DNA from: a virus
Lineage: Duplodnaviria > Heunggongvirae > Uroviricota > Caudoviricetes
DNA length: 64,000 nucleotides
Virus record (IMG/VR): IMGVR_UViG_2687453522_000001
Direction: 5' to 3' (one strand)
In this document: one piece after another, positions 1 to 44,490 of the stretch
Position numbering within the stretch: the first letter of the stretch is position 1
How the letters are laid out: every line of letters starts with the position of its first letter
Notes under the pieces: generated by a model
Databases searched by the model: none
The model's input: the letters and a program-made list of their open reading frames with translations, nothing else
What the model was told of the DNA's origin: nothing
Position numbers and translations under genes: made by a program

Positions 1-7
1 GCTCTTT

Positions 8-24
8 ATTGCTCTAATTATTTG
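8..24 (+). promoter_or_regulatory. P1 C1-repressor operator-like site (ATTGCTCTAATTATTTG)
   Basis: Matches the recalled 17-bp C1 operator consensus ATTGCTCTAATAAATTT in 14/17 positions with the core ATTGCTCTAAT intact; lies just upstream of ORF 41..352. Confidence 0.4.
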
Positions 25-40
25 ATATTTATGGTTACAC

Positions 41-352
41 ATGCGGAAGGATTTCAAAATAGACGGAAAATATGTGGTGCTGTCTGTAAGCTCTCAAATT
101 CAGTCACCATCTGTCATTGTCACCGTAAAGTTGAGCGATAGGATGCCTGATATCGACTCGATATCTGTTGCGTTCCCCGTTAAAAGCATGCGGAGTGCTG
201 AACATTTTGTGATGAATGCAACGGAGGAGGAAGCACGGCGCGGGCTTACTAGAGTGATGGCGGAATTTGGCGAACTCCTGGGTAAGGTAAACAATTCCCT
301 TTCAATCAGTTCAGCAAGATCCAAAGCGTTAACAGCTTCCATGATGAAATAA
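41..352 (+). CDS. hypothetical small protein upstream of ref
   Basis: 103-aa ORF in the track; no recognisable motifs; true start may be an internal Met. Confidence 0.3.
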   Translation: MRKDFKIDGKYVVLSVSSQIQSPSVIVTVKLSDRMPDIDSISVAFPVKSMRSAEHFVMNATEEEARRGLTRVMAEFGELLGKVNNSLSISSARSKALTASMMK

Positions 353-482
353 AAAAGCCTGGCAAGGAGCCAGGCTACACAAAAGAGCGGGTTTGTATTC
401 CGCATCCAATCAATCAAGAAGGAGTATAGCACACAGGTACTGAAGTGAAAAAATGTGATTCGCGATAAACAAAATATCGACC

Positions 483-507
483 ATTGCTCTAATTGATTGC
501 TATAATT
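483..507 (+). promoter_or_regulatory. C1 operator-like site (ATTGCTCTAATTGATTG) overlapping a TATAAT -10 hexamer; probable C1-controlled ref promoter
   Basis: Operator core at 483-499 followed directly by gcTATAATtt at 502-507; ref is a known C1-repressed gene in P1. Confidence 0.5.
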
Positions 508-567
508 TAGCCGCAGTTTTTGTCAACTACGAAGACGTTGCCATTACTTAACTCCTTGACATCATTG

Positions 568-592
568 GCGGCCATCAGGCCGCCTTTTTTTT
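568..592 (+). terminator. hairpin plus T8 tract in the ref leader (attenuator-like)
   Basis: GGCGGCC-atca-GGCCGCC perfect 7-bp stem followed by TTTTTTTT, ending 5 nt before the ref ATG. Confidence 0.4.
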
Positions 593-597
593 GCCAT

Positions 598-1158
598 ATG
601 AAAACAATCGAACAAAAAATTGAACAGCACCGTAAGTGGCAGAAGGCAGCCAGAGAACGAGCGATCGCTCGGCAACGGGAGAAGTTGGCTGATCCGGCCT
701 GGCGAGAATCTCAATATCAGAAAATGCGGAATACTATCGACCGCCGTATCGCTAAACAGAAAGAGCGCCCACCAGCCAGCAAAACGCGGAAAAGCGCGGT
801 AAAGATAAAATCTCGTGGCTTGAAGGGGCGAACACCGACAGCGGAGGAACGGAGCATCGCCAATGCTCTTGGCGCTCTCCCCTGCATTGCCTGCTACATG
901 CATGGAGTAATATCTGAAGAGGTGTCTCTGCACCATATTTCCGGTCGTACCGCGCCTGGTTGTCACAAAAAGCAATTGCCACTTTGTAGATGGCACCACC
1001 AGCATGCAGCACCGGCTGAAGTAAGAGCAAAATACCCCTGGCTGGTCCCTGTTCATGCCGATGGTGTGGTTGGAGGCAAGAAAGAATTCACCCTGCTGAA
1101 CAAGTCAGAGATGGAGTTACTGGCTGACGCCTATGAGATGGCAAACATCATGCACTAA
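598..1158 (+). CDS. ref: Ref, HNH-family endonuclease (recombination enhancement function), 186 aa
   Basis: Starts MKTIEQKIEQHRKW; Cys/His HNH-like motifs (CIACYMHG, LHHISGR, CHKK, CRWHH); length from the internal ATG equals P1 Ref; C1 operator upstream. Confidence 0.7.
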   Translation: MKTIEQKIEQHRKWQKAARERAIARQREKLADPAWRESQYQKMRNTIDRRIAKQKERPPASKTRKSAVKIKSRGLKGRTPTAEERSIANALGALPCIACYMHGVISEEVSLHHISGRTAPGCHKKQLPLCRWHHQHAAPAEVRAKYPWLVPVHADGVVGGKKEFTLLNKSEMELLADAYEMANIMH

Positions 1159-1308
1159 TAAATATATTATTTTTAATAATAAATGATTGACAACTGACAA
1201 GTGACTTCAGTCAGAATCATCACATGCCCGGTACGGATGGATCCCTTTTCAAATATTCCATGGACGGCACAGTCTGAGTACCGGGCGCTACCTTCAGTTG
1301 TATTGCTA

Positions 1309-1337
1309 AGCCGCCGCTGGTGGCTTTTCTTTTTTGT
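1309..1337 (+). terminator. putative intrinsic terminator downstream of ref
   Basis: GCCGCC-gct-GGTGGC stem (one G-U pair) followed by TTTTCTTTTTT; contains a Chi octamer GCTGGTGG at 1315-1322. Confidence 0.3.
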
Positions 1338-1346
1338 AGGGGCGCT

Positions 1347-1988
1347 ATGGATAAGAAAATATGCGTTGTTTCGATGAGCGTCGGCAAACCGGCATCAATG
1401 ACTGCTGCATGGATCAATAACGAGCTGATAATGGCTGAGCGGACCAGCTACCCTGAACGCCGCCGCGATATGGAACTCCAGCTGCTGCGCGAATTGCGAG
1501 AAAAAGAGGAAAAGGGTTTTATCGTGCTGGTGGAAGAGGAAAACAGCTTTATTACTGGTCGAGTTGGCCAGCGTGTAAGGTTGCGCGATCCCTTCATGAA
1601 CGGCAGGCCGGTACTAATTGAGGCAATGCAGATTTATAAGGAGCTGGAACGCCAGAAAGCAATCAAGTTACCGCGCAAGGAATCCGGCAAATACATCCTC
1701 CACCAAAGCATCTTCGATTCCGAACACGATAAAAAAGGCGATGAATTTTTCAACATCAACTGGAGCGAAATAACGACAGAGCACGTTCTGACGTTGTTAT
1801 GCTGCTTCGCAACGGAATATAACAACGTTGCAAGCGCCGACTACATTAGGGCAATGGCAGGAGAAGTTGATGCCCGCCAGGAATCATCGTTACTAAGCCC
1901 TCTGATTAACATAATTCGCGGAACCCAAACACTGGCACAAAAACGGGTGCCTAAAGGGGAGTTAACTGGAAAAGGAAATTATCTATAA
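1347..1988 (+). CDS. hypothetical protein at the P1 mat position
   Basis: ORF (track 1320..1988) with an AGGGG Shine-Dalgarno before ATG 1347; backbone-like GC by eye; no diagnostic motifs. Confidence 0.45.
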   Translation: MDKKICVVSMSVGKPASMTAAWINNELIMAERTSYPERRRDMELQLLRELREKEEKGFIVLVEEENSFITGRVGQRVRLRDPFMNGRPVLIEAMQIYKELERQKAIKLPRKESGKYILHQSIFDSEHDKKGDEFFNINWSEITTEHVLTLLCCFATEYNNVASADYIRAMAGEVDARQESSLLSPLINIIRGTQTLAQKRVPKGELTGKGNYL

Positions 1989-2044
1989 ACGTCAATGCAT
2001 TAGGGTATACTTCTCCATAGAACTATAAGTAAATGGAGTAAGTA

Positions 2045-3352
2045 ATGAGCGAATATGTTGAGTTAGCATACGCTGCCGCTACAAGCAGGCTTTGTCTATT
2101 TACCGGGACTGGCTTTTCAAAGGCAGTCTCGAACGGTGAAGCTCCAACGTGGAAGGAACTATTAAAAAAAGTTTGCAGCAAAGTTCACAATGCCAAAAAG
2201 TTGGAAGACACGTTATTCCCTGATGATAAACCACCAGCACTGAGTCTTGAAGAAGCCGCACAAATACTATCTTTGAAGCTCAATATTGAGGGTAAGTCGA
2301 TTTATGATGAAATTGTTGACATCATATCTCCAATTCAACTTGGAGAAGACATATCAAATATAAAAGATTTTTTCCAAAAAAACTCATTCCGTGTCATTAC
2401 AACAAATTATGACAAGTTGGCTGAATGCTTGGTTGGAGATGAAAGTGTGCAGTCTATCACGCCCGGCCTGCCAATTCCAAAGTATCCATCCAAGGTGAAA
2501 ATATATCATGTTCATGGTTCTATTGATTCGCCAAAAAATATGATTGTCACTTCAGATGATTACTTCAGATTTATAAATTCCGATACTTATTTTTCACGAA
2601 AACTTAGTACGATGCTGCATGAAAATACAGTTGCGATATTAGGGTATTCTTTAAGCGACACAAATCTTAAAGCAATTATAAATGACTATAAAAAATTTTC
2701 GAAAAATAATGCCCTGTGCTCTAATATCTTTTTGATATCTCGCAACAAAGTAAGTCAAGATATGAAGGATTATTACTTCTATTGCTTTGGTATAAGGGTA
2801 ATTGACAATACAGAAATAGATTGTTTCTTTAGTCGATTAAGTTATAAGATTTCTCTCATTAAAGACATCATTGAAAGAGCGCGCGAAAATATCAGAAAAG
2901 TTGTTTCGGGGGCTTACACTTATAAAAATGAATATCTTAAATTAGAGGATTCATTTTATCAAATTATATCATCAATTATATCGGAAGGTTTAGATTGGAA
3001 TGATGATAAAGTCGTTTCTCTTTTCGAAAGGATAATAGAAAAAAAGAGAAAGTTAACAAGGAATAACGGAGCGTGGGAGCAATATGAACAGTTGGCAAAA
3101 TGGCTTATATATTTTGGAAGCATCATAGAGGTTAGCAATACTAAGTATGAAAAAACATATTTAGACGCAGTTGAATACTCGATGGGTCATATGAGTAAAG
3201 AAAGGAATTGGGGAGTTTCTTGGCATGCTTACAGAGCTTGGGAAACACGATGGCCTGCAATAATTGCCTCAAATAGATTAATGATAAAAAACCACATTGA
3301 AACATTAGGCACCTTGAAGGACGCCAACCTTATAGTTAAGAATATAGTGTAA
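2045..3352 (+). CDS. SIR2-like (sirtuin-fold, putative NAD+-hydrolysing) domain protein, 435 aa; candidate single-gene anti-phage defense
   Basis: N-terminal LFTGTGFSKA (Rossmann glycine loop), RVITTNYDKL (N121) and KIYHVHGSID (H157), spaced as in defense-associated SIR2 domains; alpha-helical C-terminal ~170 aa of unknown function; markedly AT-rich versus neighbours; GGAG Shine-Dalgarno. Confidence 0.8.
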   Translation: MSEYVELAYAAATSRLCLFTGTGFSKAVSNGEAPTWKELLKKVCSKVHNAKKLEDTLFPDDKPPALSLEEAAQILSLKLNIEGKSIYDEIVDIISPIQLGEDISNIKDFFQKNSFRVITTNYDKLAECLVGDESVQSITPGLPIPKYPSKVKIYHVHGSIDSPKNMIVTSDDYFRFINSDTYFSRKLSTMLHENTVAILGYSLSDTNLKAIINDYKKFSKNNALCSNIFLISRNKVSQDMKDYYFYCFGIRVIDNTEIDCFFSRLSYKISLIKDIIERARENIRKVVSGAYTYKNEYLKLEDSFYQIISSIISEGLDWNDDKVVSLFERIIEKKRKLTRNNGAWEQYEQLAKWLIYFGSIIEVSNTKYEKTYLDAVEYSMGHMSKERNWGVSWHAYRAWETRWPAIIASNRLMIKNHIETLGTLKDANLIVKNIV

Positions 3353-3372
3353 TTGTGGTCGATAAAAATTTA

Positions 3373-3396
3373 TCGGGCAGATAAAACTGCCCGATA
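3373..3396. terminator. bidirectional hairpin between the convergent SIR2-like gene and the lxc-like gene
   Basis: ATCGGGCAG-ataaaa-CTGCCCGAT perfect 9-bp inverted repeat with A/T-rich flanks. Confidence 0.45.
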
Positions 3397-3398
3397 AA

Positions 3399-3647
3399 TT
3401 AATCAGCATTCAGGAGCAATGCGTTATCTATGATGATCTGCTCCCATTCTTCGAATGCCCGGTCACGGACGCCCTGGGGAACGCTGTTAGTTTTGAAATC
3501 GACGACCGTACGCCATTTCCCGTCCGGACGGTACATGCGCAGAGCTTTACTTCCCCCTTCCCTGCGCACCTCAACGTTATGCTTATCAGCAAACTCTTGT
3601 AATGCTCGTAGCGTCCCATGCTTTACTGTGTAGTATCGCTTTTTCAA
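3399..3647 (-). CDS. lxc: Lxc (Bof)-like small protein, 82 aa
   Basis: Size and position (downstream of ulx and darB on the same strand) fit P1 lxc; named on synteny and size only. Confidence 0.4.
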   Translation of the reverse strand: MKKRYYTVKHGTLRALQEFADKHNVEVRREGGSKALRMYRPDGKWRTVVDFKTNSVPQGVRDRAFEEWEQIIIDNALLLNAD

Positions 3648-4084
3648 GTTTTCTCTCCAGCCTGTGCTAAGGCTTCAACTTCCAAATCGTAAGACTCAAA
3701 CTCATAGTCCTGGTCGTCAACCTCTTCAGGCACTGGCAGTAAATGCCAGGCTGAGTATATCTGACCATTATCAAAACGCTCCTGGCTGTAGAGCGTCGCA
3801 GCTATGAGCGTCAGCGCCGGGCGGTCATAACGGTAAATTTTGCGAACGTCACGGTCAACGAGACGACCGAAATTACCATAACCGCGCTCCAGTAATAATT
3901 TTTTAATTTCCGGCCAGTATGGACCATAGCTGCGGTACAGGCGGGGATTTTTCAGTAATCGCCCGCGTAGCCCTGACAGGAAGAAATCAACGTATTCGTC
4001 TTCTGTCTTTCCTAACAACGCTGTACGGAGTACCGCCTCAAGATATGTTTTATTCGGTTTTATTGTATCAGATAGTGTGGCCAT
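3644..4084 (-). CDS. ulx: Ulx-like protein, 146 aa
   Basis: Lies between darB and the lxc-like gene with a 4-nt overlap onto lxc; named on synteny only. Confidence 0.4.
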   Translation of the reverse strand: MATLSDTIKPNKTYLEAVLRTALLGKTEDEYVDFFLSGLRGRLLKNPRLYRSYGPYWPEIKKLLLERGYGNFGRLVDRDVRKIYRYDRPALTLIAATLYSQERFDNGQIYSAWHLLPVPEEVDDQDYEFESYDLEVEALAQAGEKT

Positions 4085-4117
4085 ATTATGCGACGCCCGG
4101 CGAACCGGGCGCTCCTG

Positions 4118-7100
4118 TTATGCGTATTGTTGGATGACGGCCAGAACGTCCGCCACGTTGTGTTTTGTCTCGATAATCCACCAGTTACCCGGGAAATCGC
4201 TGTTCTTCGCCTTCGCTGGCAGCCAGCGAGCGCCGAATTTCGCCTTGATTGCGTCTTTCGCACGGAAAAGAACGCCTTTCATGCCTGAGGCTTCCTGAAG
4301 CCCAAATACCTCGCCAGCGGCGAATTTTGGTGCGTACATCATCTTCAGGTCGGCGGTGGATACGCGATAATTCAGACCAAGAGACTGAGCTATGCTGGTG
4401 GCATCACCCTGTATTGATGATAACTCTTCTTGTTTCTCGTTTCTGGCGGCAATTTCTTCCTCCGTGATGTTGCCAAGGGCCAGGTTTATCCGATCAGCGT
4501 CGGCCTGTTTCTCTTCATCGGTGCGCCCGGCAAGAACCGTGTTAATTCTCTGCAATATCTCCACATGATTCTTACGCATGCTGAGCAATTCCGGCGTAAC
4601 TTCGTTAAGATCCACCAGCCCAAGGATGGCAAGGTCGGAAAACATTGATACCAGGTTGTAGGTCATGCGATAGCTGAGTTGGCCATAGGCTGATGGCAAC
4701 TGCACCGCATCCATTTGATAGGCATCCATAAATTTAGAGCCGTCGTTTACGACATCCGCAATTGCAGGTGTGATTTTCCCTGTGGTAGCGGCCTCCCTGA
4801 TTGCTGTTACCCACGATTGAGTCAGTGCGGCGACTGCATGAATCAGATTGGCTTCCCGTTCTGCTGCGATGCGCGCGCTTGCTGAGTCCATTGCCTGCTT
4901 GATCTCGGCTTTATTGCTGTAAATGCCAATGGTGCCAAACTGTGCTGTGGTGATCTCATAATCTGACGCCCGGAACTCATGGGTACCGAAAATGGCATTG
5001 GTGACCTCAAGTTCAGAATCCCCGTTACGAGTAGCCCCCTGGCTTGTTTTCTCCGGCATTTTTGCGATCGCATCCGCTATTTTCTCCTGAATTGCTTCAG
5101 GGGATAGCGTATCTCCGTATGACGCGATTACATCGCCATAATTGGAGCCAAACAATTCAACCAGGAATGTTTCTGCCGAACGGATCTGGCGGTTATTCCC
5201 TTCCGACATCATACCAAGCACCCATTTTGCAATTGACGACTTCAGCGCGCCGTCACGGCGATCCGGGTAAACCGCATGCTTCAGTGGGTCCGTATAGGTA
5301 CCAACAAAATCAATGCTATAGCCTGACTCTGTAGTCTGAACGCCGTATGAGTCAGTGATTTTGATCATGCCGCGCTGCTGGAAACGGTAGAAATCGTCAC
5401 AGGAAATGATGTCGTTAATCCCGGCGATGGAGACGCCACCACTGATTTTCTGCATAACAGCATCTTCATCGGGAGTTACATCCACCTGTTTATCCAGCGT
5501 CTTCACATCCCAGTTACCCGATTTGGTGCCTTTGAAGGTAAAGATGATCTCCACGTCTGCGCGCTGGCTGTCGAAGTCCAGCGACTTAATACGAACGATA
5601 TCACCGGCACAATCGTAGTATTGGCCTACACGCCATGAGCGATCGCCGATAACAAGGAACTCATTCGCATGGTTAACCAGATCAGGATCAACATCCAGAA
5701 TGCCTTTATTTATTGCATCCTCCACCAGTGGGCGCAGGCGTTTGATATCCGTCGCGGCCTTCTGAGTACGGTTCAATAATTTCTCATAGCGGGAGATGGC
5801 TTGAGAGATATTAGCCTTGCGCTGAATGGCGCTTTTCAACGACGCGCGATACTGTGCTAACAACGTACGGTCTGTGTGATGGACGCTACCCCAGCGGGCC
5901 TTCCAGTCTGCGTTATCAGCTGCTTTGGCCATTACCGCCTGTTTGAATTTAGCTACCTCGGCGGTGGTCTTTTCAAGTTCCGCTTTGCTTCGCTCTAATT
6001 CAGCGGTAAGTACCTCCACATCCTCGCCAGCTGCGTGCTGCGCCTTGATGTAGTTCTGAAGGTCGATAGTAGCCTGTTCTTTCTGGCGAGCGCGTTGCGC
6101 GGCTTTCGCCTTATCCATTTGAACCTGCATCATTGCCAGACGTTCGCCATCATCCTTAGCGGTATACATCTGCATTTCGATCATGTCATTGGCGTCGGCG
6201 TTCTCCATTTCTGACTTATCTGAACGGAGGATATCGGAGATCCAGCCTGCTTTACGCTTCAGCGTCTTCAGTCGGTATTCATCGAAAGACCCCTTGCCGC
6301 AGTAGTAGTGAACGCGAACGCTTGCACGGTTGGAGCCAACTCGTGCACCGCGACCGTTACGTTGTGCGATACTGGCTGGTGTCCACGGCAACGTCAGGTG
6401 GTGGATATCCGTCGTTCCTCGATGCAGGTTGATACCCACCTCTGCCTTTTTGTTGCAGATGATGATCGGAGTCCGGCCCTCCTGGAAGTCGGCAGCAATC
6501 TTTTCCAGCCCACCCAGCGACATTTCATTTTGCTGCGCGATATAGGCGTCATACAGAGCCATTTGCTCGTTGTATTTCGCTATCTGTGCATCTGTTGGTT
6601 CATCCGGTAGCTCTTTCGGCGGTTTAACCGCTTTCAGTTTCTTACCGGTTTTACCTGCCTCGGCAACCGTCTGAGCATTCAGGATCCCCACCTTTGAAGG
6701 TTCAAGGTTAAGAGCATTGCAGATAATGCGCTTGAGCTTCTGGTGTTGCGTTTTTTCATCGGTGAAGATGATTTGCTTACCTTCCGGGAAAAACTCCTTC
6801 AGCGTGGCAATCAGCTTCGCGTATTTGGGCGTAACGGGGTGAGTTACGGTCTGTTCGTCAATGCCAAACTTGGCCAGGCGCTTATTCACTTCCTGCTCAA
6901 ATGCTTCCGGTACCTGCAACTGAATAAACTCGCCCTTATCTATCAGGGAGTATTGCGATTGCTGCGTGATCGAATCATCACTGTCGTCGTCTTCGCTGGT
7001 GGCTTGTTTAGGCAAACTGTCCGCCAGCTGCTGCACCGCATCGGCGTACTCCGGCAGGAAACGATAGGTGATCCTGCGATAGTACAGGTCCATGTCAGTA

Positions 7101-10100
7101 CATACGCGGTCCATATCCCTGATTATTGAGAAGATCGGACGGGCTTTCTCGTGCTCAATCACGCCGTCTTCATTGACCGAGGTCGTTACGCCATTGTTGG
7201 CTTTGGCTGCCGCTTCCGCCTGCTGACGCAATTCTTCATACGCCGCCAGTTGTTCTTCCGTAAGTGGTGCATCCTGCTGGTGTTCGTCCAGTTCCGGGAT
7301 CTCCACGGTATCCTTAACGTCTTCCGCCGTTTTAAGCGTTGTCCAGCGATGGAATATGCCGCGCAGCGCATCAAGGTTTTCAAAGCCCACCAGCGCCATT
7401 TTTTCTTCAACTTCACCGCTGATTTTCTGTACCGTTTCCAGCCTGGTCTTGCCGAAGAATTTAACGAAGTCATCAGGACCGTAGATCCCCATCTTCTGCC
7501 AGTATTCCTTCGGCAGCACATGAGAAAGCATGTTGTATGCATCGATCGGGGTGTTAACGACTGGCGTTGCAGTCAGGAGAACCGGTCCGCGCCCACCATT
7601 CTTTTTCATCAGGTACGCGTTTTTAATTGCCATATCCCGCGCCGATTGCGCCACCGCGCTGGTGGGCAGATAGGCCAGTTGTGACGCTTCGCGACCATTT
7701 TTATAGCTATTGCGGTAGTTGTGACCTTCGTCAGCGATCACACTATCGAAGCCCATATCCTCAAAGTACGGATACTTCTCTGCTTTTTCGGTGCCGGTAT
7801 CTGAATACTCCGACAATACCCGGCGACGCGCGGCCTCTTTGCGGTGGGAGTCGGAGTCCATTGCGCTGGCTACGCGCCCGGCGGCAACGAAGTCATAAAG
7901 CATATCCTGTGCATGCTCATCTACGGTGTCATCACGTAGCGGAATGCGGGCGTATTGTTCTTTGGTAAACACGACTGCACGGTAATTTGAGTGCGGGATC
8001 GCGTTCATCCGCGCCGTGATAGTGGCTTCATCTGCCAGTTTTAGGGCATCGCGCATAACTGGAGTGCCATCAGTACCAAGAACAGGTTTACCGTTCTCAT
8101 CGAGCACCGGCACCTGGCGAATCTGATCGCCATCCATCAGCACATCAAGACCGACGAACAGGTAGTTACTGAATGCCTCTTCACTCAGGAATTCTTTTGC
8201 TTCGTAATACCAGTTTTCCAGCACTGATTTAGGCACTACATACGCAGTACGGGTGGAGCGACCGTTCTCATAGTTGAACGCCTCAAGCGCCAGCGCGGTC
8301 GTAGTTTTACCCAGCCCGGTGCCGAAGCCCAGGATGCCGCGCCCATCTTCGGACAGTCGGCGCACTTCGCTATTCTGGTAATCAAATGGCTGGCGCTTAC
8401 CGCTTAATCCCTTCAACCCAAGCGGATCGCCAGAGTGTTCATACGGGATATTGCTATTGAACACATCGTTGTATTTGGCAACCAGTTCATCGTAGCGATC
8501 GTGCGTCTTGATCCACTTATTGAACTGGTCCTCAAGCAGTGCCATCTGCTCGCGGTAGCCGTTCGCCGTCGCGCTATCTTTGCCACCGATACGCGCACCA
8601 TTGAGATACTTTTCCAGCTGTGCCGGGAACCCGGTCGCGTTTTCACCTGATTTACGGTCCCACTCGTAGCGGATCTCGCCTGTTTCTTTATCCTTGCGCT
8701 GGACGACACCGTATCGGTGCCCGACGAACAGGCCATCACCACCGTGATAGGTGTCAGAAACCATTTCGTCGCCTTCCAGCTGCACTGACTGCACATAGCG
8801 CAGATCCGGATAGCCGTTTTCCTGCAAAAACTCCAGAATGACGGAACGGTCGAACCAACGGCTATTGAGCTTAAACCGGATATTCTCTGCTGGCGTCTTG
8901 ATGCGCTTCTCTTCGATCGCTGCCAGCTGATTAAGGACGTTGTTCTTTACTGGACCGTCGGGGAGCGTGGCGAGGAATTCCTGTTTTGGAGCCACTATCT
9001 CGTTAATGTCGCCGCTGGTGGCGCGGGCGAACGGAACAATCCCGCCATACGGAGAAACCGCAATACCAGGAGTGCTGGCCAATAAATTAAGCAACTCTTC
9101 ATCACTGGCTGGCAATTCGCCGGTAAACGCAAGGCGGAAATCATCGAGCTGGATTGGATCGCGGGTAAGATCGCTATAGAGATAACGCAGGGTGTCCTGA
9201 TAGCTGGTGGAGTCATAACTGGCGCTGGAATCATGCGTAACCAGCTTTCCTGTCAGCTCGTCAGAAATAGTGCCATCCAGCTTAATTGCACCACGGAAAG
9301 CAAACCAGGCGCGCGCACCGCTTCCCGATAATTTAGCTATCGGACCGCGACCAGGGTTACCAAAACGGTCAATCTCTGCCTGCAAACGGGATACCAGAGA
9401 AAGGCGCTGCTGTTCGATTTGTTCAGCACTATGCCCGGCGGCCTTCATATCCTGATATTCAATTAACATCCGGCCAATCATCGCCCCACGATACAAGCGT
9501 TCACGGTATTTTTCAGGCTGGCTGTTAATCCAGTCCACCAGCTGCACCATATCGTCGCTGATTGATGTGGTGTACTTATCGCGGACATTTGCCATCTGGG
9601 TAAATGTCATACCGAGACGGCCTTCTGTTGTAGTCAGGTTACGCTGAAGAGCCTCCCAGCTATCCGCGCCATAACTGGCAGCATCAATTTTAAGTTCCTT
9701 CCCGGCATCAGCTTCAATCCAGCGACCACCAGCATATTTTTGCCATACGCCATTAATCAGGCGCATTTCCCCTTCACCAACAACGTCTGCGGTCAGTGAC
9801 GGTTCAGCCATATCGAGCAAAGACCAGTCGATACGGCTTTCGAAACGATGAATCAGCTTCGCTTTAAGAGCCTGGTTATCAATCTGACCGTCGGCACGAA
9901 CCTCAATACGCCCCTGGAAGCCCTTTTCCTGGGTGCCATGAACAAACCGGCGGCCATCCTTTTCAAACCACTTGCCAGAAATAAACGTTGGCCAAAGCAC
10001 ATTTGCCGATTCAAGAGTGCTTTCATCCACCAGGGGGATTTTCTCAGCCATCTCTGCCGGATGTTTGCGCATCAGCACCACATCAACGACTGTACTGGTC

Positions 10101-10885
10101 CCGTTTGCGTCAAAAGTACCGGTAGGCAAGCGGTGGGCACCAAGAAATTCAGCTTTCCGTGATAGGCGCAGGCGTAACCGCTTCATGTTTGAACCTGAAA
10201 CAATGGACGGCGGCACAATCACGCACATGAATCCGCCTGGCTTTATCTTGTCCAGCATGCGGAGCATGAAGTAAGAACCCATGTCCGTTTCTTCTGCGTA
10301 AGGCTTATCGATGTTGCGTGTGTTATCACGACCGCCGAACGGAACGTTACCCACAACATGGTCGAATGAATCGTTAGGCGTGCTTATAGCCAGCTGTTCG
10401 AACGGGGAAATCTGTACGCTGTCTTCCGGGTGTAACAACTGGTTTATACGACCGGAAACACTGCTGATCTCAGTCGCGGTCATCACCGTACCAACCGGTT
10501 TTGTCTCATTAAAAACGCCGGTTCCCGCCGATGGTTCCAGAGTGTTACCTACGTCCGCGCCGTAGAGCTTCATGATCTCCCAGACACCTTCAGCGATCGG
10601 CTTTGGTGTGTAATATTCGGAGACGGACCCGCCAATGCCGCCTTCACCGGTGTACCCAGCCAGGATCTGGCGCTGTTCATCTGTCAGTGTCGCGCCGTCC
10701 ACCAGCGAATTAAGCAAATCAATCGCCTTCTGATTCGCCTCCCGGCGTAGTCGGTCATAGCTTTTGCCTTCCACCTTTTCCACGCCGTATCTAATCGGCG
10801 CTCGGTGAGATGTTATTGCCCTAATGTATTTCAATATTTCGCTGACACTTGAACAGCGAAACACCCCCATAGATAGCTTGTTCAT
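4118..10885 (-). CDS. darB: DarB, giant virion anti-restriction protein (N6-adenine MTase-like domain plus DExH helicase), 2255 aa
   Basis: Length identical to P1 DarB; MTase-like motif GNVPFGG near the N-terminus; helicase Walker A GFGTGLGKTT and DExH box IADEGHNYRN. Confidence 0.9.
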   Translation of the reverse strand: MNKLSMGVFRCSSVSEILKYIRAITSHRAPIRYGVEKVEGKSYDRLRREANQKAIDLLNSLVDGATLTDEQRQILAGYTGEGGIGGSVSEYYTPKPIAEGVWEIMKLYGADVGNTLEPSAGTGVFNETKPVGTVMTATEISSVSGRINQLLHPEDSVQISPFEQLAISTPNDSFDHVVGNVPFGGRDNTRNIDKPYAEETDMGSYFMLRMLDKIKPGGFMCVIVPPSIVSGSNMKRLRLRLSRKAEFLGAHRLPTGTFDANGTSTVVDVVLMRKHPAEMAEKIPLVDESTLESANVLWPTFISGKWFEKDGRRFVHGTQEKGFQGRIEVRADGQIDNQALKAKLIHRFESRIDWSLLDMAEPSLTADVVGEGEMRLINGVWQKYAGGRWIEADAGKELKIDAASYGADSWEALQRNLTTTEGRLGMTFTQMANVRDKYTTSISDDMVQLVDWINSQPEKYRERLYRGAMIGRMLIEYQDMKAAGHSAEQIEQQRLSLVSRLQAEIDRFGNPGRGPIAKLSGSGARAWFAFRGAIKLDGTISDELTGKLVTHDSSASYDSTSYQDTLRYLYSDLTRDPIQLDDFRLAFTGELPASDEELLNLLASTPGIAVSPYGGIVPFARATSGDINEIVAPKQEFLATLPDGPVKNNVLNQLAAIEEKRIKTPAENIRFKLNSRWFDRSVILEFLQENGYPDLRYVQSVQLEGDEMVSDTYHGGDGLFVGHRYGVVQRKDKETGEIRYEWDRKSGENATGFPAQLEKYLNGARIGGKDSATANGYREQMALLEDQFNKWIKTHDRYDELVAKYNDVFNSNIPYEHSGDPLGLKGLSGKRQPFDYQNSEVRRLSEDGRGILGFGTGLGKTTTALALEAFNYENGRSTRTAYVVPKSVLENWYYEAKEFLSEEAFSNYLFVGLDVLMDGDQIRQVPVLDENGKPVLGTDGTPVMRDALKLADEATITARMNAIPHSNYRAVVFTKEQYARIPLRDDTVDEHAQDMLYDFVAAGRVASAMDSDSHRKEAARRRVLSEYSDTGTEKAEKYPYFEDMGFDSVIADEGHNYRNSYKNGREASQLAYLPTSAVAQSARDMAIKNAYLMKKNGGRGPVLLTATPVVNTPIDAYNMLSHVLPKEYWQKMGIYGPDDFVKFFGKTRLETVQKISGEVEEKMALVGFENLDALRGIFHRWTTLKTAEDVKDTVEIPELDEHQQDAPLTEEQLAAYEELRQQAEAAAKANNGVTTSVNEDGVIEHEKARPIFSIIRDMDRVCTDMDLYYRRITYRFLPEYADAVQQLADSLPKQATSEDDDSDDSITQQSQYSLIDKGEFIQLQVPEAFEQEVNKRLAKFGIDEQTVTHPVTPKYAKLIATLKEFFPEGKQIIFTDEKTQHQKLKRIICNALNLEPSKVGILNAQTVAEAGKTGKKLKAVKPPKELPDEPTDAQIAKYNEQMALYDAYIAQQNEMSLGGLEKIAADFQEGRTPIIICNKKAEVGINLHRGTTDIHHLTLPWTPASIAQRNGRGARVGSNRASVRVHYYCGKGSFDEYRLKTLKRKAGWISDILRSDKSEMENADANDMIEMQMYTAKDDGERLAMMQVQMDKAKAAQRARQKEQATIDLQNYIKAQHAAGEDVEVLTAELERSKAELEKTTAEVAKFKQAVMAKAADNADWKARWGSVHHTDRTLLAQYRASLKSAIQRKANISQAISRYEKLLNRTQKAATDIKRLRPLVEDAINKGILDVDPDLVNHANEFLVIGDRSWRVGQYYDCAGDIVRIKSLDFDSQRADVEIIFTFKGTKSGNWDVKTLDKQVDVTPDEDAVMQKISGGVSIAGINDIISCDDFYRFQQRGMIKITDSYGVQTTESGYSIDFVGTYTDPLKHAVYPDRRDGALKSSIAKWVLGMMSEGNNRQIRSAETFLVELFGSNYGDVIASYGDTLSPEAIQEKIADAIAKMPEKTSQGATRNGDSELEVTNAIFGTHEFRASDYEITTAQFGTIGIYSNKAEIKQAMDSASARIAAEREANLIHAVAALTQSWVTAIREAATTGKITPAIADVVNDGSKFMDAYQMDAVQLPSAYGQLSYRMTYNLVSMFSDLAILGLVDLNEVTPELLSMRKNHVEILQRINTVLAGRTDEEKQADADRINLALGNITEEEIAARNEKQEELSSIQGDATSIAQSLGLNYRVSTADLKMMYAPKFAAGEVFGLQEASGMKGVLFRAKDAIKAKFGARWLPAKAKNSDFPGNWWIIETKHNVADVLAVIQQYA

Positions 10886-10951
10886 TGGTAATCCTTAACA
10901 AGTGACTAGTGTTAAATTCCGTTCAAACACGATGCGAATTATTCTAATTAA

Positions 10952-13682
<2,731 letters not shown>

Positions 13683-40889: not shown

Positions 40890-41783
40890 ATGCATTCTTT
40901 ACAGAAATACATAAAACATAAATATACTCACTTAACTTTTTTTCTCTCATTACTTTTCTTCATGATATTTGAATCTCGAGAAGATATTATCAAGAAAACA
41001 TTATCTTTTTCTCTCGATGAAGTTTTACCATTCTTAATGTTTGCGTTCTTCTCCGCCTTTATCAGCATAACGATAAAGGAAAAGATAGCAAAAAAATACC
41101 CAGAAACAAACGATGGGATTACCATTATAGCTTTAATCTTTGGTGTAACGCTATATAGTGTATTTATATTATATTATTTATATGGTGATGTATACCAATC
41201 CACAATTGCTTTACTTATAAGTTCTGTGCTACTTGGTTCTGGGTGGTGGGTTCAGGCTACTGTGAGTAAAGTAGCCGCAAGAAAATCACACACCTTAAAT
41301 ACACTAATGAATCAAAGAAACAGTGAATTATTTCACAAAAAAGTCTCATCGGTAGCGAATACGTTCGGGCTTAGAAAAACCATAAATGAAATTATTGCCA
41401 AACAAAGACTTATCCCAAATGATAAAGATTTAAAAAATAAAAAGGTCCATGATAAATACATATCAGCAGGTAATGATATGTTCTTCGTTCTTAATTATTA
41501 TGAGTTTATCTGTTCAGGAATAATAAATGGAGACTTTGATGAAGATTCAATGAGAGAATGTCTTGGACAAATTGTTCCAGGTCTCGAAGTTAGAGCATTT
41601 CATTTTATAAGAATTGCAAGAGAAATTTCAGGGAGTAGCTGCTTCTGTAATTTTGTTGCTGTTTCAGATAAATGGTCTACTAATGGAGGCTCTCTTATTC
41701 TCAGACACGAGAAAGGAGAACCTGTGATCAATAACCTGACCCATTGCTTTGAAGAAACAGCCTGTTATAACACAACATCTTAA
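40890..41783 (+). CDS. multi-pass membrane protein with a ~170-aa cytoplasmic C-terminal domain (accessory cargo at the sim position)
   Basis: About four N-terminal hydrophobic helices; very AT-rich; opposite strand to flanking phage genes. Confidence 0.6.
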   Translation: MHSLQKYIKHKYTHLTFFLSLLFFMIFESREDIIKKTLSFSLDEVLPFLMFAFFSAFISITIKEKIAKKYPETNDGITIIALIFGVTLYSVFILYYLYGDVYQSTIALLISSVLLGSGWWVQATVSKVAARKSHTLNTLMNQRNSELFHKKVSSVANTFGLRKTINEIIAKQRLIPNDKDLKNKKVHDKYISAGNDMFFVLNYYEFICSGIINGDFDEDSMRECLGQIVPGLEVRAFHFIRIAREISGSSCFCNFVAVSDKWSTNGGSLILRHEKGEPVINNLTHCFEETACYNTTS

Positions 41784-41791
41784 TATTTTGT

Positions 41792-41815
41792 AACCCATAA
41801 TCGCTTTATGGGTTA
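41792..41815. terminator. bidirectional hairpin between convergent genes
   Basis: AACCCAT-aatcgcttt-ATGGGTT inverted repeat. Confidence 0.35.
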
Positions 41816-41834
41816 CGTTAAATTTGCAATAAAA

Positions 41835-42311
41835 TTAATCGCCGCGCTTTAAGCATCCATCGTTTTTAGCTTGTTGATATAATTTACTTAGCCCAGAAAG
41901 AGGAAATGTGGCAATTTTTTCATTATCAACATAAGCATCGATCGCATTAGCATTTGAATCTGCTGCATCTTGCCAAAAGGCATACCACCAAGAATCTCCA
42001 ACCATTGACCCAAGATTGCTAAAAGGGTATTGCTCACCATCTAATGTTAATACTATTTTACTCTTGTCAGCATTATACTCTTTTTTATTATTCGACGACC
42101 TTAGCAACAGGCCTAAACTACCGGCACTATCTGGTGATCCATACATGAAACCCATATCACATAAAAAACTTATCTTATCACCATTTTGATTATGGATTGT
42201 ATATTCTCTCCCCCCTCTATCTTCAATTACATTCCATTGTAGAGGATCAATTTTTGCAAATACTCCTGCTGAAATTAACGATACAAATAATAAAAACCAT
42301 CTCATATTCAT
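41835..42311 (-). CDS. secreted (signal-peptide) protein, 158 aa
   Basis: N-terminal MNMRWFLLFVSLISAGVFA signal-peptide-like sequence; AT-rich; downstream of the 116-aa membrane protein on the same strand. Confidence 0.55.
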   Translation of the reverse strand: MNMRWFLLFVSLISAGVFAKIDPLQWNVIEDRGGREYTIHNQNGDKISFLCDMGFMYGSPDSAGSLGLLLRSSNNKKEYNADKSKIVLTLDGEQYPFSNLGSMVGDSWWYAFWQDAADSNANAIDAYVDNEKIATFPLSGLSKLYQQAKNDGCLKRGD

Positions 42312-42333
42312 TTTTTTCGCTTCTTATCTGTAA

Positions 42334-42684
42334 TTATTCTGCAATATCATTTGCCCATTGCACGGCAGCAAAATGAGTGCCCAAGCCACTCAGGAAAGCA
42401 ATTATTCCCAAAACAATACTAGCTGCTGTTGATTCAAACAAAGCACCAATGCTATAGCCAATAGCTCCCCATACTAAGCTAAAGACAATCATCAATGGTA
42501 TTGCCAGAAATTTTATTCTTAAACTAAAAATCAGTCCAAGAAATGAACCGCCAAAGGCCCACCATGATTTAGACATTAAACCTATCAGTATTGACAGAAT
42601 TCCTATTTCAATAAAGAGAATATTAGATTGCTCTTCATTGAATTTCGCATTTGTTACACCTTTACGAACATGTTCAGATGACAT
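42334..42684 (-). CDS. small inner-membrane protein (three predicted TM helices), 116 aa
   Basis: Hydrophobic segments ILFIEIGILSILIGL, IPLMIVFSLVWGAIGY, IVLGIIAFLSGL; AT-rich. Confidence 0.55.
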   Translation of the reverse strand: MSSEHVRKGVTNAKFNEEQSNILFIEIGILSILIGLMSKSWWAFGGSFLGLIFSLRIKFLAIPLMIVFSLVWGAIGYSIGALFESTAASIVLGIIAFLSGLGTHFAAVQWANDIAE

Positions 42685-43180: not shown

Positions 43181-43402
43181 GTGGCTACTATCCCTACCCC
43201 AACTCATCCTGAATTTATCTGGCGCTTTTACTCCTGCCAGAAACGTCACTATCACTTCGTTATTGCACCGACAGAAGATGAGGCTCGCTCTCAGCTTCCG
43301 GATGCACCCTGTATTTTCTCTGCCCGCTTTTCTACCGATTCGCGCAATTCTCTCAGTTACTGGAGCCTCCCTGTTAACGCTTCTGCTCAGGAGGGACTAT
43401 GA
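43181..43402 (+). CDS. icd: Icd-like cell-division inhibitor, 73 aa
   Basis: GTG start after AGGAGG; sequence (HPEFIWRF...EDEARSQL) resembles Icd-family proteins; stop overlaps the ant start. Confidence 0.55.
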   Translation: MATIPTPTHPEFIWRFYSCQKRHYHFVIAPTEDEARSQLPDAPCIFSARFSTDSRNSLSYWSLPVNASAQEGL

Positions 43403-44490
43403 GAACGTCATTAGTCACCCGTGAAGAGATGATCGAGGCAATTGAACAGCACACTGCCTGTATCAGTACCAGGGATATACCAGGCGTTATTGCCAACTAC
43501 TTCATGATCACCAAACAACTTTACCGGAGAAAGGACAAGAACGCGGTTCACCGTATCCTGTTGTCTGATATCCGCGAATACCTGCTCGAACAGGGTCATC
43601 TGAATTACGCAACCGTCGCAGCCGAAGCACGCAAGGAGGCACACAGAATGAAAGCAAATAACGTTAAATTAGAAAAAATTCATGCACCTTCAGTTCAGGA
43701 ATCAGAGCTGGTGGTTGCTCAAAATCAGCCTGATGAAATTCCCGTTCTGGAATGGCTGGGAGTACGTGTAGTGACAACTGAGACTCTTGCTAAGGGGTAT
43801 GGGACCGATGAAGCGAATATTCGTAAAAATTTGTCTCGCAACCCCGATCGCTTTGAAGAAGGTAAGCATTACTATCTCTTAACTGGTTCAAAATTAAAGG
43901 AATTTAAAAGGCTAGTGACTATTAGTCACTTGGTTAGCAAATATACAAGTCAGGTAATTCTCTGGGCCGAGCGCGGCGCTGCACGCATGTCTAAGATCGT
44001 GGACACAAATGAAGCTTGGGCATTCTTTGAAAAACTGGAAGACAGCTACTTCCGGCAAAAAGAACAGCAACCGGTCGCAATCCCCCAAACATTACCAGAA
44101 GCCCTACGCCTGGCTGCCGAGTTAGCAGAACAGAAAATGCAGTTGGAACAACAGCTGGTGGCCGCAGCCCCTAAAGTCGATTTTGCCGACCGGGTATCAG
44201 TGGCCAATGGAATCCTGATCGGGAACTTTGCAAAGGTCGTTGGACTTAAGCAAAACGCCCTTTTCTCATGGTTGCGCCAGAATGGCATTCTCATGGCTTT
44301 TGGAGCGCGCAAAAACGTACCGCGCCAACAGTACATCAACGCCGGGTATTTCACGGTGAAAGAAGTGGTGCTGGATGATGAAAATGGCTACCAGATACGG
44401 CTGACGCCCCAATTAACGGGTAAAGGCCAGCAGTGGTTAACTCGCAAGCTACTTGATGCTGGTTTGTTAAAACCAGTAGCAATAGGTTAA
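43399..44490 (+). CDS. ant: Ant antirepressor, 363 aa
   Basis: ATG overlaps the icd stop (ATGA); C-terminal AntA/KilAC-type domain (PKVDFADRV...GKGQQWL); position within immI. Confidence 0.7.
   Translation: MRTSLVTREEMIEAIEQHTACISTRDIPGVIANYFMITKQLYRRKDKNAVHRILLSDIREYLLEQGHLNYATVAAEARKEAHRMKANNVKLEKIHAPSVQESELVVAQNQPDEIPVLEWLGVRVVTTETLAKGYGTDEANIRKNLSRNPDRFEEGKHYYLLTGSKLKEFKRLVTISHLVSKYTSQVILWAERGAARMSKIVDTNEAWAFFEKLEDSYFRQKEQQPVAIPQTLPEALRLAAELAEQKMQLEQQLVAAAPKVDFADRVSVANGILIGNFAKVVGLKQNALFSWLRQNGILMAFGARKNVPRQQYINAGYFTVKEVVLDDENGYQIRLTPQLTGKGQQWLTRKLLDAGLLKPVAIG

What the first reader, a model, noticed from the sequence alone, without database searches (positions are those of the whole stretch)
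2045..3352. AT-rich single gene for a SIR2-like protein occupies the P1 res/mod defense hotspot, beside the dar anti-restriction locus
Between ref (plus a backbone-like gene) and lxc/ulx/darB, where P1 carries the EcoP1I type III res/mod genes and IS1, there is one gene for a 435-aa protein with the sirtuin-fold hallmarks of defense-associated SIR2 NADases: glycine loop LFTGTGFSKA, TTNYD (N121) and HVHGS (H157) about 36 residues apart. Its C-terminal ~170 aa match no domain I recognise; there is no TIR, SLOG, HerA, pAgo or other partner, so it does not fit Thoeris, DSR, SIR2-HerA or SIR2-APAZ as I know them. Composition is visibly more AT-rich than the flanks and the gene is closed by a bidirectional terminator. 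A standalone SIR2 effector with a novel sensor domain, carried by a phage-plasmid at its defense hotspot, is the strongest candidate for an undescribed abortive-infection system here.
Basis: partly seen in the sequence, partly recalled or inferred. Interest (0 to 1): 0.85.

Follow-up and report, generated by a model that had tools for sequence, protein, structure and literature searches.

The report
Standalone SIR2 gene in P1 hotspot
A P1-like phage-plasmid carries, where phage P1 keeps its restriction enzyme genes, a single gene for a predicted NAD-destroying SIR2 enzyme fused to a small helical domain of unknown role; it is a plausible but untested one-gene anti-phage system of a known general kind.

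Summary
Window 2045-3352 (+) encodes a 435-aa protein with GC of 35% against about 50% in the flanks. It lies between mat and lxc/ulx/darB, where P1 carries res/mod.

- **Domains.** Residues 1-257 are a SIR2_2 domain with invariant N121 and H157. It is closest in fold to the defence NADases KomC, ThsA, Avs5 and DSR2. Residues 258-435 form an all-helical solenoid with no Pfam or PDB relative, and this domain occurs only in this architecture.
- **Family.** The roughly 434-aa family is widespread in Proteobacteria. No neighbouring gene family recurs in more than 4 of 52 genomes. The gene often sits beside restriction or other defence genes, transposases, or at prophage ends.
- **Hotspot.** About 18% of mat-bearing P1-like plasmids carry a family member at this site. 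At least five allele classes (59-100% identity) share one 56-nt leader.

The most likely function is single-gene NAD+ depletion defence with a short DSR-like layout. This is inferred, not shown. No defence library names the family. A 2024 preprint describes a roughly 440-aa "sole-Sir2", but I could not test whether it is the same family. I rate this a new variant of a known kind, of moderate interest.

The parts
1320..1988 (+). mat (maturation control), the P1 backbone gene at the left border of the variable site
   Evidence: 97% DNA match to mat of RCS47/P1-like phages. P1 annotation. Present in 695 plasmids.
1962..1989 (+). Candidate weak sigma-70 promoter TTAACT-16 nt-TATAAA overlapping the mat stop codon (unverified)
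   Evidence: Read from the sequence. The allele in L011 has TTAACA. The consensus scan did not call it because the last base of the -10 is A.
1989..2044 (+). 56-nt leader of the cassette, with GGAG ribosome-binding site at 2035-2038
   Evidence: Its first 28 nt match exactly in 20 fetched loci, all P1-like SIR2 cassettes of every allele class. Where read in full (L011 and the 59%-identity clade L105) the 56 nt differ from the window by one base. Absent from the empty site of RCS47 and from the RelA/SpoT cassette.
2045..3352 (+). CDS, 435 aa, SIR2 + helical C-terminal domain
2045..2815 (+). SIR2 (NADase-type) domain, residues 1-257. Gly loop is residues 18-27 (2096-2125), N121 codon 2405-2407, H157 codon 2513-2515
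2816..3349 (+). C-terminal all-alpha domain, residues 258-435, with conserved AWxQYxxLAxWL (343-354) and GYSW (390-393) motifs
3367..3400 (.). 14-bp stem hairpin closing the cassette. Likely terminator for lxc; weaker for the SIR2 gene
   Evidence: dG -24 kcal/mol, z=-6.4 on both strands. T-run only on the minus strand.
3399..3647 (-). lxc (C1 modulator), the P1 backbone gene at the right border of the variable site
3644..4084 (-). ulx (Ulx-like anti-restriction)
4118..10885 (-). darB (2255 aa methyltransferase/helicase, anti-restriction)

Best explanation
The gene is a self-contained, single-protein anti-phage system of the NAD+-depletion type. It rides as exchangeable cargo in the mat-lxc variable slot of a P1-like phage-plasmid.

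**Proposed mechanism.**
1. The N-terminal SIR2 domain (catalytic N121 and H157) is an NAD+ glycohydrolase that is kept inactive in uninfected cells.
2. The C-terminal roughly 175-aa helical solenoid is the regulatory or sensor module.
3. When this module meets an infection cue, most likely a phage protein bound directly as in DSR2, inhibition is released. The protein probably oligomerises, as ThsA, KomC, Avs5 and DSR2 do.
4. NAD+ is then consumed, and replication of the incoming phage aborts.

**Shown here.** Gene, fold, catalytic residues, standalone status, hotspot location, accessory distribution and purifying selection.

**Inferred.** NADase activity, the trigger, oligomerisation and phage protection.
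For: - **SIR2_2 domain.** E=1e-23. N121, H157 and the GTG loop are invariant in 112 homologues. H157 aligns to DSR2 H171.
- **C-terminal domain.** It is helical-repeat-like, in the same class as the DSR2 sensor domain.
- **Standalone.** No neighbouring gene family is shared by more than 4 of 52 species' loci. The domain occurs only fused to SIR2.
- **Context.** Neighbours include:
  - type I R-M genes, with the gene inserted between hsdS and hsdR in a Treponema and 36 bp after hsdR in Massilia;
  - NERD-UvrD, TIR, dGTPase, a defence-type reverse transcriptase and PD-T7-5;
  - transposases.

  A 60%-identical E. coli homologue sits at a lambdoid prophage end just past a 392-aa gene with a faint integrase arm-binding Pfam hit. 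Of 26 IMG/VR proviral copies, 16 are in P1-like elements.
- **Hotspot.** The mat-lxc interval holds res/mod in P1, nothing in RCS47, and a RelA/SpoT cassette in 673R5. It is listed as variable region 1 of P1-like plasmids (PMC9603915). 126 plasmids carry a family member, against 695 with mat.
- **Selection.** Between alleles at this locus, dN/dS is 0.04-0.07 in residues 101-257 of the SIR2 domain and 0.12-0.21 in the C-terminal domain. The gene is maintained and the putative sensor evolves faster.
- **Precedent.** A single roughly 440-aa 'sole-Sir2' hydrolyses NAD+ in vitro, and a homologue protects against T2 and T4 (10.1101/2024.12.27.630466).
Against: - There is no functional test of this gene or of any verified family member.
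- PADLOC matches only the SIR2 core of other families: PDC-S25 over profile positions 127-289 of 517, plus ThsA, LmuA, Dsr1 and Dsr2. NCBIfam scores for Dsr1 and Dsr2 are 26 and 22 bits against cut-offs of 1400. No curated defence family claims it.
- The C-terminal domain is unusually conserved for an arms-race sensor. It shows 66% mean column identity across classes of Proteobacteria, with five invariant Trp.
- No clear own promoter and no terminator lie between mat and the gene. Transcription might depend on the C1-repressed late mat promoter, which would suit a lytic-phase role better than defence of the lysogen.
- None of 50,697 deposited phage genomes, including 22 P1-like ones, carries a homologue.
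- The CRISPR-linked sole-Sir2 versions gave no protection in E. coli, and the preprint describes the opposite domain order.
Confidence: 0.6

Rival explanations
1. Orphan effector of a signalling pathway. The protein is an NADase switched on by a small molecule, such as a cADPR isomer or cyclic oligonucleotide, made by a sensor encoded elsewhere in the host. The C-terminal domain would be the ligand receptor.
For: The closest folds include the signal-activated ThsA and the KomC of Kongming. The C-terminal domain has strongly conserved aromatic and polar residues (W344, Y347, W353, S392, W393, W399, N410, R411), which could form a pocket. TIR/ThsB-like neighbours were seen for 2 of the 150 nearest-neighbour ORFs.
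Against: No sensor gene recurs in more than 4 of 52 loci. The domain is a helical solenoid, not a SLOG, SAVED, CARF or Macro fold. The gene travels alone on P1-like plasmids and prophages between hosts.
Confidence: 0.1
2. A function that benefits the phage during P1's own lytic cycle, or in competition between mobile elements. The gene would be read through from the C1-repressed late mat promoter and would act in exclusion, in host takeover, or against host NAD-dependent defences.
For: The gene is co-oriented with mat and 57 bp downstream of it, with no predicted terminator and no consensus promoter between them. In P1, mat is under a C1 operator and a late promoter. The gene is adjacent to the dar anti-restriction genes.
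Against: The same family occurs in chromosomes, beside or inside type I R-M gene clusters, and at prophage ends, unrelated to P1 regulation. The other occupants of the slot, EcoP1I R-M and a RelA/SpoT cassette, are lysogen-expressed defence or toxin-type cargo. A candidate promoter TTAAC(T/A)-16-TATAAA sits at the junction.
Confidence: 0.1
3. An ordinary sirtuin-type protein deacylase or ADP-ribosyltransferase that modifies host or plasmid proteins, as the NCBI name 'NAD-dependent protein deacylase' implies.
For: The database name. Catalytic N and H are shared with true sirtuins.
Confidence: 0.05
4. A non-functional remnant of horizontally acquired DNA.
For: A few copies are truncated or split (H107, H145, L123, L127).
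Against: The exact protein is found on 555 contigs. dN/dS is 0.04-0.21. Catalytic residues are invariant. Length is fixed at about 434 aa across phyla.
Confidence: 0.03

Closest known systems
DSR2 (defence-associated sirtuin 2, Bacillus subtilis)
   Same: A single protein with an N-terminal SIR2 NADase domain. This is the best sequence match in the PDB: residues 12-257 align to DSR2 37-272 at E=2e-11, and H157 corresponds to H171. It also has a C-terminal alpha-helical repeat region and no partner gene.
   Different: DSR2 is about 1000 aa, with MID and long HEAT-repeat sensor domains that bind the phage tail tube. Here the tail is only about 175 aa and shares no detectable sequence with DSR2. 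The NCBIfam Dsr2 score is 22 bits against a cut-off of 1400.
sole-Sir2 (bioRxiv 10.1101/2024.12.27.630466)
   Same: A single roughly 440-aa Sir2 protein with no partner. It is reported to hydrolyse NAD+ in vitro, and one homologue protects E. coli against T2 and T4.
   Different: The preprint places the Sir2 domain at the C-terminus and an unknown N-terminal part, the reverse of this protein. It was found inside type I-C cas operons, and none of the roughly 60 family contexts examined here had cas genes. No sequence was available, so identity with this family is untested.
ThsA (type I Thoeris) and KomC (Kongming)
   Different: ThsA has a SLOG domain and needs ThsB. KomC is a 264-aa bare SIR2 that needs KomA and KomB. 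Neither partner nor a SLOG domain is present here.
PADLOC candidate PDC-S25 / PHROG 2695
   Same: A single-gene SIR2 candidate, and the best PADLOC hit (E=1e-26).
   Different: The match covers only the SIR2 core (profile positions 127-289 of 517). The N- and C-terminal parts differ.
P2/P4 defence hotspots (Rousset et al. 2022, PMC9122126)
   Same: A fixed slot between conserved phage genes holds interchangeable, AT-rich defence cassettes, including uncharacterised SIR2 genes.
   Different: This is a different element (the P1-like phage-plasmid) and a different slot (mat-lxc). I found no systematic treatment of that slot as a defence hotspot in the searched literature. PMC9603915 only lists res-mod as a variable region.

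Membership tests
Pfam SIR2_2 (PF13289) | HMM score above the gathering threshold | tested here: met
   84.4 bits against 24.5, residues 117-252.
PHROG 7567 (function unknown) | Full-length match to the profile | tested here: met
   E=3.8e-248, residues 1-434 on profile positions 1-434 of 434.
DSR1 / DSR2 | Equivalog-level match to the roughly 1000-1200-aa protein with its sensor domains | tested here: not met
   NCBIfam Dsr1 scores 26 bits and Dsr2 22 bits, against cut-offs of 1400. Only the SIR2 core aligns, and the protein is 435 aa.
DSR1 / DSR2 | Single gene with an N-terminal SIR2 carrying catalytic Asn and His | tested here: met
   N121 and H157 are invariant, and H157 aligns with DSR2 H171. 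No neighbouring gene family recurs in more than 4 of 52 loci.
DSR1 / DSR2 | NAD+ depletion on infection, triggered by a phage structural protein | not testable with these tools
   Needs infection assays and NAD+ measurement.
Thoeris (ThsA/ThsB) | SLOG (or Macro) signal-binding domain on the effector, and an adjacent TIR ThsB | tested here: not met
   The C-terminal domain is all-helical and the ThsA HMM matches only residues 119-238. No TIR gene lies beside the gene in the window. TIR/ThsB-like matches came from only 2 of the 150 nearest-neighbour ORFs of the 52 loci.
SIR2-HerA (Nezha) | Adjacent HerA helicase | tested here: not met
   The neighbours are mat and lxc. No HerA family appears among the recurrent neighbour families reported.
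SPARSA (SIR2-APAZ + short pAgo) / Avs5 (SIR2-STAND) | APAZ domain with a pAgo partner, or a STAND NTPase domain in the same protein | tested here: not met
   There is no such Pfam or PADLOC match beyond the SIR2 core, and 435 aa leaves no room for an NTPase.
Kongming (KomABC) / Lamassu LmuA-SIR2 | Partner genes KomA and KomB, or LmuB (SMC) and LmuC | tested here: not met
   The LmuA HMM matches only residues 13-241, the SIR2 part. No partner lies beside the gene in the window, and no neighbouring gene family recurs in more than 4 of 52 loci.
PADLOC PDC-S25 | Full-length match to the 517-528-aa profile | tested here: not met
   Only profile positions 127-289 are matched.
sole-Sir2 (CRISIS preprint) | Sequence homology to the tested proteins, with the Sir2 domain C-terminal as described | not testable with these tools
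   No sequences or supplements are held. The stated domain order is opposite. Size and single-gene nature agree.

The most novel reading that the evidence does not exclude
The roughly 175-aa helical tail is a new, compact infection sensor. It directly recognises a conserved phage component and switches the SIR2 NADase on by oligomerisation, making this a minimal 'mini-DSR'.

Separately, the P1 mat-lxc slot, with its invariant 56-nt leader, would be a dedicated cassette-exchange and expression site. Divergent sensor alleles (59-100% identity) are swapped through it by recombination. That would make P1-like phage-plasmids a defence-gene discovery resource, as the P2/P4 hotspots are.
Probability: 0.3. 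Interest if true: 0.6.

Novelty: new variant of a known kind. Interest (0 to 1): 0.45.

Why it matters
If the gene protects against phages, it would be one of the smallest self-contained SIR2 immune proteins. Its sensor domain has no known relative, which makes it a tractable model for how a roughly 20-kDa helical module gates an NADase.

It would also show that about one in six P1-like phage-plasmids, which are common in clinical and livestock E. coli and often carry resistance genes, arm their hosts against other phages. That bears on phage therapy and on competition between mobile elements.

The mat-lxc slot itself (R-M, RelA/SpoT and SIR2 cassettes, or empty) looks like an unexploited hotspot for finding further systems.

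Tried and rejected
- **Single-sequence AlphaFold.** The model was useless (pLDDT 36). It was replaced by a model built from a 112-sequence alignment.
- **Structure libraries.** afdb50 was unavailable. BFVD gave no significant match.
- **Phage genomes.** tblastn against 50,697 phage genomes found nothing.
- **C-terminal domain.** A profile search against the PDB found nothing. The Pfam BBH37 and NCBIfam P12 lipoprotein hits (E=0.016 and 0.003, below their cut-offs) were dismissed as helical-bias noise.
- **Link to sole-Sir2.** No supplements are held, and there is no other paper. Distant family members and Rodentibacter loci were checked for cas genes, and none were found.
- **Proteus upstream gene.** A 305-aa upstream gene shared by two Proteus loci was examined as a possible partner. 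It has no defence-related or partner-type domain (one locus gives only a DMTF1_N match, the other none) and is not found elsewhere.
- **Leader RNA.** The fold is not significant (z=-0.6), and Rfam found nothing in 1-5000.
- **Literature.** Searches for P1 hotspot plus SIR2, PDC-S25, IncY plus SIR2, and standalone SIR2 found no study of this gene.

Full report
**Observation.** The window opens with the P1 backbone genes c8, ref and mat on the + strand. From 3399 onward, lxc, ulx and the 2255-aa darB lie on the - strand. Between mat (stop at 1988) and lxc (stop at 3399) lies one ORF, 2045-3352 (+), of 435 aa. It has an ATG start and a GGAG ribosome-binding site. GC falls to 29-38% inside the gene, against 44-53% in the flanks. 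A 14-bp-stem hairpin (3367-3400, dG -24 kcal/mol, z=-6.4) closes the cassette. It has a good T-run only for the lxc strand, so 'bidirectional terminator' is only partly right. In the P1 reference the same interval holds res and mod, with IS5 (not IS1) inserted.

**What the protein is.** Pfam assigns residues 117-252 to SIR2_2 (E=1e-23).

- PADLOC hits cover only the SIR2 core of other families: PDC-S25, ThsA, LmuA, Dsr2 and Dsr1.
- NCBIfam Dsr1 and Dsr2 score 26 and 22 bits, against cut-offs of 1400.
- By sequence, the best solved relative is the SIR2 domain of DSR2 (residues 12-257 against 37-272, E=2e-11). H157 lies opposite DSR2 H171, the residue mutated in the H171A structures.
- A single-sequence AlphaFold run failed (pLDDT 36). 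With a 112-sequence alignment the model reached pLDDT 86 and pTM 0.76.
- A profile of this domain finds nothing in the PDB, and it has no Pfam family.

**The family.**

- The search for homologous proteins returned 684 relatives. The top 120 are almost all 431-444 aa and 52-87% identical over their full length. They come from Gamma-, Beta- and Alphaproteobacteria.
- Mean column identity is 72%, and the Gly loop, N121 and H157 are invariant.
- An exhaustive phmmer search with the C-terminal domain alone, against 1.84 billion representatives, gave 75 hits. Every full-length hit is 421-480 aa with the domain at the same position, and all twelve retrieved for inspection have an N-terminal SIR2 domain. 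So this domain exists only in this architecture.
- Conserved motifs in the tail (AWxQYxxLAxWL and GYSW, with several invariant Trp) persist in the widest alignment.
- PHROGs already holds the family as phrog_7567, function unknown.
- Sources name it only 'SIR2 family (NAD-dependent protein deacylase)'. The exact protein is seen on 555 contigs.

**Standalone or not.** I fetched 52 full-length loci from 52 species and clustered all ORFs within 7 kb. No neighbour family occurs in more than 4 loci.

Among the nearest neighbours are several defence and mobility genes:

- Type I R-M genes. The gene sits between hsdS and hsdR in a Treponema, and 36 bp after hsdR in Massilia.
- NERD-UvrD, TIR/ThsB-like proteins (2 of the 150 nearest-neighbour ORFs), dGTPase, a defence-type reverse transcriptase, PD-T7-5, PDC-S05 and PDC-S66, and Mrr.
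- Transposases and resolvases.

A 60%-identical E. coli homologue lies at the end of a lambdoid prophage. It sits immediately after a 392-aa gene with a faint integrase arm-binding Pfam hit, next to narP/ccm. Other contexts show no partner. IMG/VR holds 26 full-length copies in viral contigs. This pattern of a solitary gene, on mobile elements and often in defence neighbourhoods, is what single-gene defence systems show.

**The hotspot.** The mat-lxc interval varies between elements:

- P1 carries res/mod.
- RCS47 has nothing there, only 40 bp with a different hairpin.
- vB_EcoM-673R5 carries a RelA/SpoT cassette, and a RelA/SpoT family protein is also annotated in the matching region of SJ46.
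- This window carries SIR2.

PMC9603915 lists res-mod as variable region 1 of P1-like plasmids and notes its low GC. In PLSDB, 695 plasmids carry mat. Of these, 60 carry this gene at 80% DNA identity or more, and 126 carry a family member by tblastn, about 18%. Among complete E. coli genomes, 63 of 5426 have it at the DNA level, and 65 of 66 places are on plasmids. None of the 22 P1-like phage records, nor any of 50,697 phage genomes, has it.

**Allelic structure (new here).** At least five allele classes occupy the same slot. Relative to the window allele they are about 100%, 86.6%, 85% and 83.4% identical at the DNA level, plus a deep clade at 59% amino-acid identity.

| Region | Amino-acid identity among the closer alleles | dS | dN/dS |
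|---|---|---|---|
| Residues 1-100 | 98-100% | 0-0.17 | not informative (few differences) |
| Residues 101-257 | 90-92% | 0.7-1.1 | 0.04-0.07 |
| C-terminal domain (258-435) | 69-81% | 0.5-1.3 | 0.12-0.21 |

The genes are mosaics with a recombination boundary inside the SIR2 domain, and the tail evolves two to four times faster at the protein level while staying under purifying selection.

The first 28 nt of the 56-nt leader (1989-2044) match exactly in all 20 fetched SIR2 cassettes, and in the two loci read in full (L011, L105) the whole leader differs from the window by one base. This includes the 59% clade, whose coding sequence diverges from the first codons. The leader is absent from the empty site and from the RelA/SpoT cassette. 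The downstream hairpins differ between clades. This looks like cassette exchange by recombination through conserved flanks, or constraint on a regulatory leader. I could not tell which.

**Expression.** No consensus promoter or terminator separates mat from the gene. In P1, mat is under a C1 operator and a late promoter. A weak candidate promoter, TTAACT-16-TATAAA (TTAACA in another allele), overlaps the mat stop codon. Whether the gene is expressed in the lysogen is open, and this is the main soft spot of the defence reading.

**Mechanism.** The best-supported reading is single-protein NAD+ depletion immunity with a short DSR-like layout. A SIR2 NADase is held inactive and released by its helical tail on sensing infection, probably with oligomerisation, as in every structurally close relative. 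The fold, catalytic residues, solitary status, context and selection are shown here. Enzymatic activity, trigger and phenotype are inferred. The rivals are given separately with their tests:

- a signal-activated orphan effector;
- a lytic-phase or inter-element role driven from the mat promoters;
- an ordinary deacylase;
- a dead gene.

**Comparison with known systems.** The protein works like DSR2 but is not a member. It lacks the roughly 700-aa MID and HEAT sensor domains and fails the equivalog models. It also fails the defining partner or domain tests for Thoeris, SIR2-HerA, SPARSA, Avs5, Kongming and Lamassu, and it matches PDC-S25 only in the core.

A December 2024 preprint describes 'sole-Sir2', a single roughly 440-aa Sir2 protein found inside type I-C cas operons. 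It hydrolyses NAD+ in vitro. The CRISPR-linked versions gave no protection, but a homologue protected against T2 and T4. The text places the Sir2 domain at the C-terminus, the opposite of this family, and no sequence is available here. None of the contexts I examined contained cas genes. Identity is therefore unresolved, and this limits the novelty claim.

**Verdict.** What remains is a well-supported but untested candidate: a new variant of a known kind, the single-gene SIR2 NADase defence, with an uncharacterised compact tail. It sits in a P1 slot that behaves like a defence hotspot. Interest is moderate (0.45). The allelic cassette structure and the conserved leader are the least expected parts.

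Noticed in passing
window 1989-2044; also L011, L094, L095, L101-L127: The first 28 nt of the 56-nt leader match exactly in all 20 fetched SIR2 cassettes at the P1 mat-lxc site, and the full leader differs from the window by one base in the two loci read (L011, L105). This includes a clade only 59% identical in protein. The leader is absent from the empty site and from the RelA/SpoT cassette. It contains CTTCTCCAT, which can pair with the ATGGAG Shine-Dalgarno sequence, but the fold is not statistically significant.
   Followed up: partly
window 2045-3352 compared with L011:6001-7308, L095:1501-2808 and L094:1501-2808: The alleles are mosaics. The first 300 nt are identical or nearly so (dS 0-0.17), while the rest has dS 0.5-1.3. 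This implies a recombination breakpoint inside the SIR2 domain near codons 100-130.
   Followed up: yes
L009 (phage vB_EcoM-673R5) 1841-3682; also SJ46: The same mat-lxc slot can hold a four-gene cassette that includes a RelA/SpoT-family (small alarmone synthetase-like) protein. A paper on beta-lactamase fitness costs involving a P1-like phage gene (PMC10865808) surfaced in the search but I did not read it.
   Followed up: no
window 40890-42684: A second AT-rich island (GC 34-35%) lies just upstream of the antirepressor gene (43399-44490). It encodes a 297-aa DUF4760 protein and two small ORFs (158 and 116 aa) with no Pfam or PADLOC match. It may be another cargo slot, corresponding to the sim region of P1.
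   Followed up: partly
L065 (Treponema MAG) 5819-11616; L034 (Massilia) 6792-11260: Distant and close family members are embedded in or abut type I restriction-modification gene clusters. The gene lies between hsdS and hsdR in L065, and 36 bp after hsdR in L034. This is a location known for other abortive-infection genes.
   Followed up: partly
L011 (pRHB16-C13_3, 146 kb IncY) 1-5518: In this P1-like plasmid a Tn3-family transposon carrying a class 1 integron (intI1, dfrA12) has inserted into mat, just upstream of the SIR2 gene. The leader and the gene remain intact.
   Followed up: no
L096 (E. coli EC16 chromosome record) 1-13308: One copy of the whole P1-like region (terminase, c1, cre, ref, mat, SIR2, lxc, darB) is recorded on a chromosome. 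It is either an integrated P1-like element or an assembly join.
   Followed up: no
L003/L004 7845-7961: In the E. coli lambdoid-prophage context, a 38-aa ORF is called just upstream of the SIR2 homologue in some genomes. It has no counterpart in the P1 cassette.
   Followed up: no
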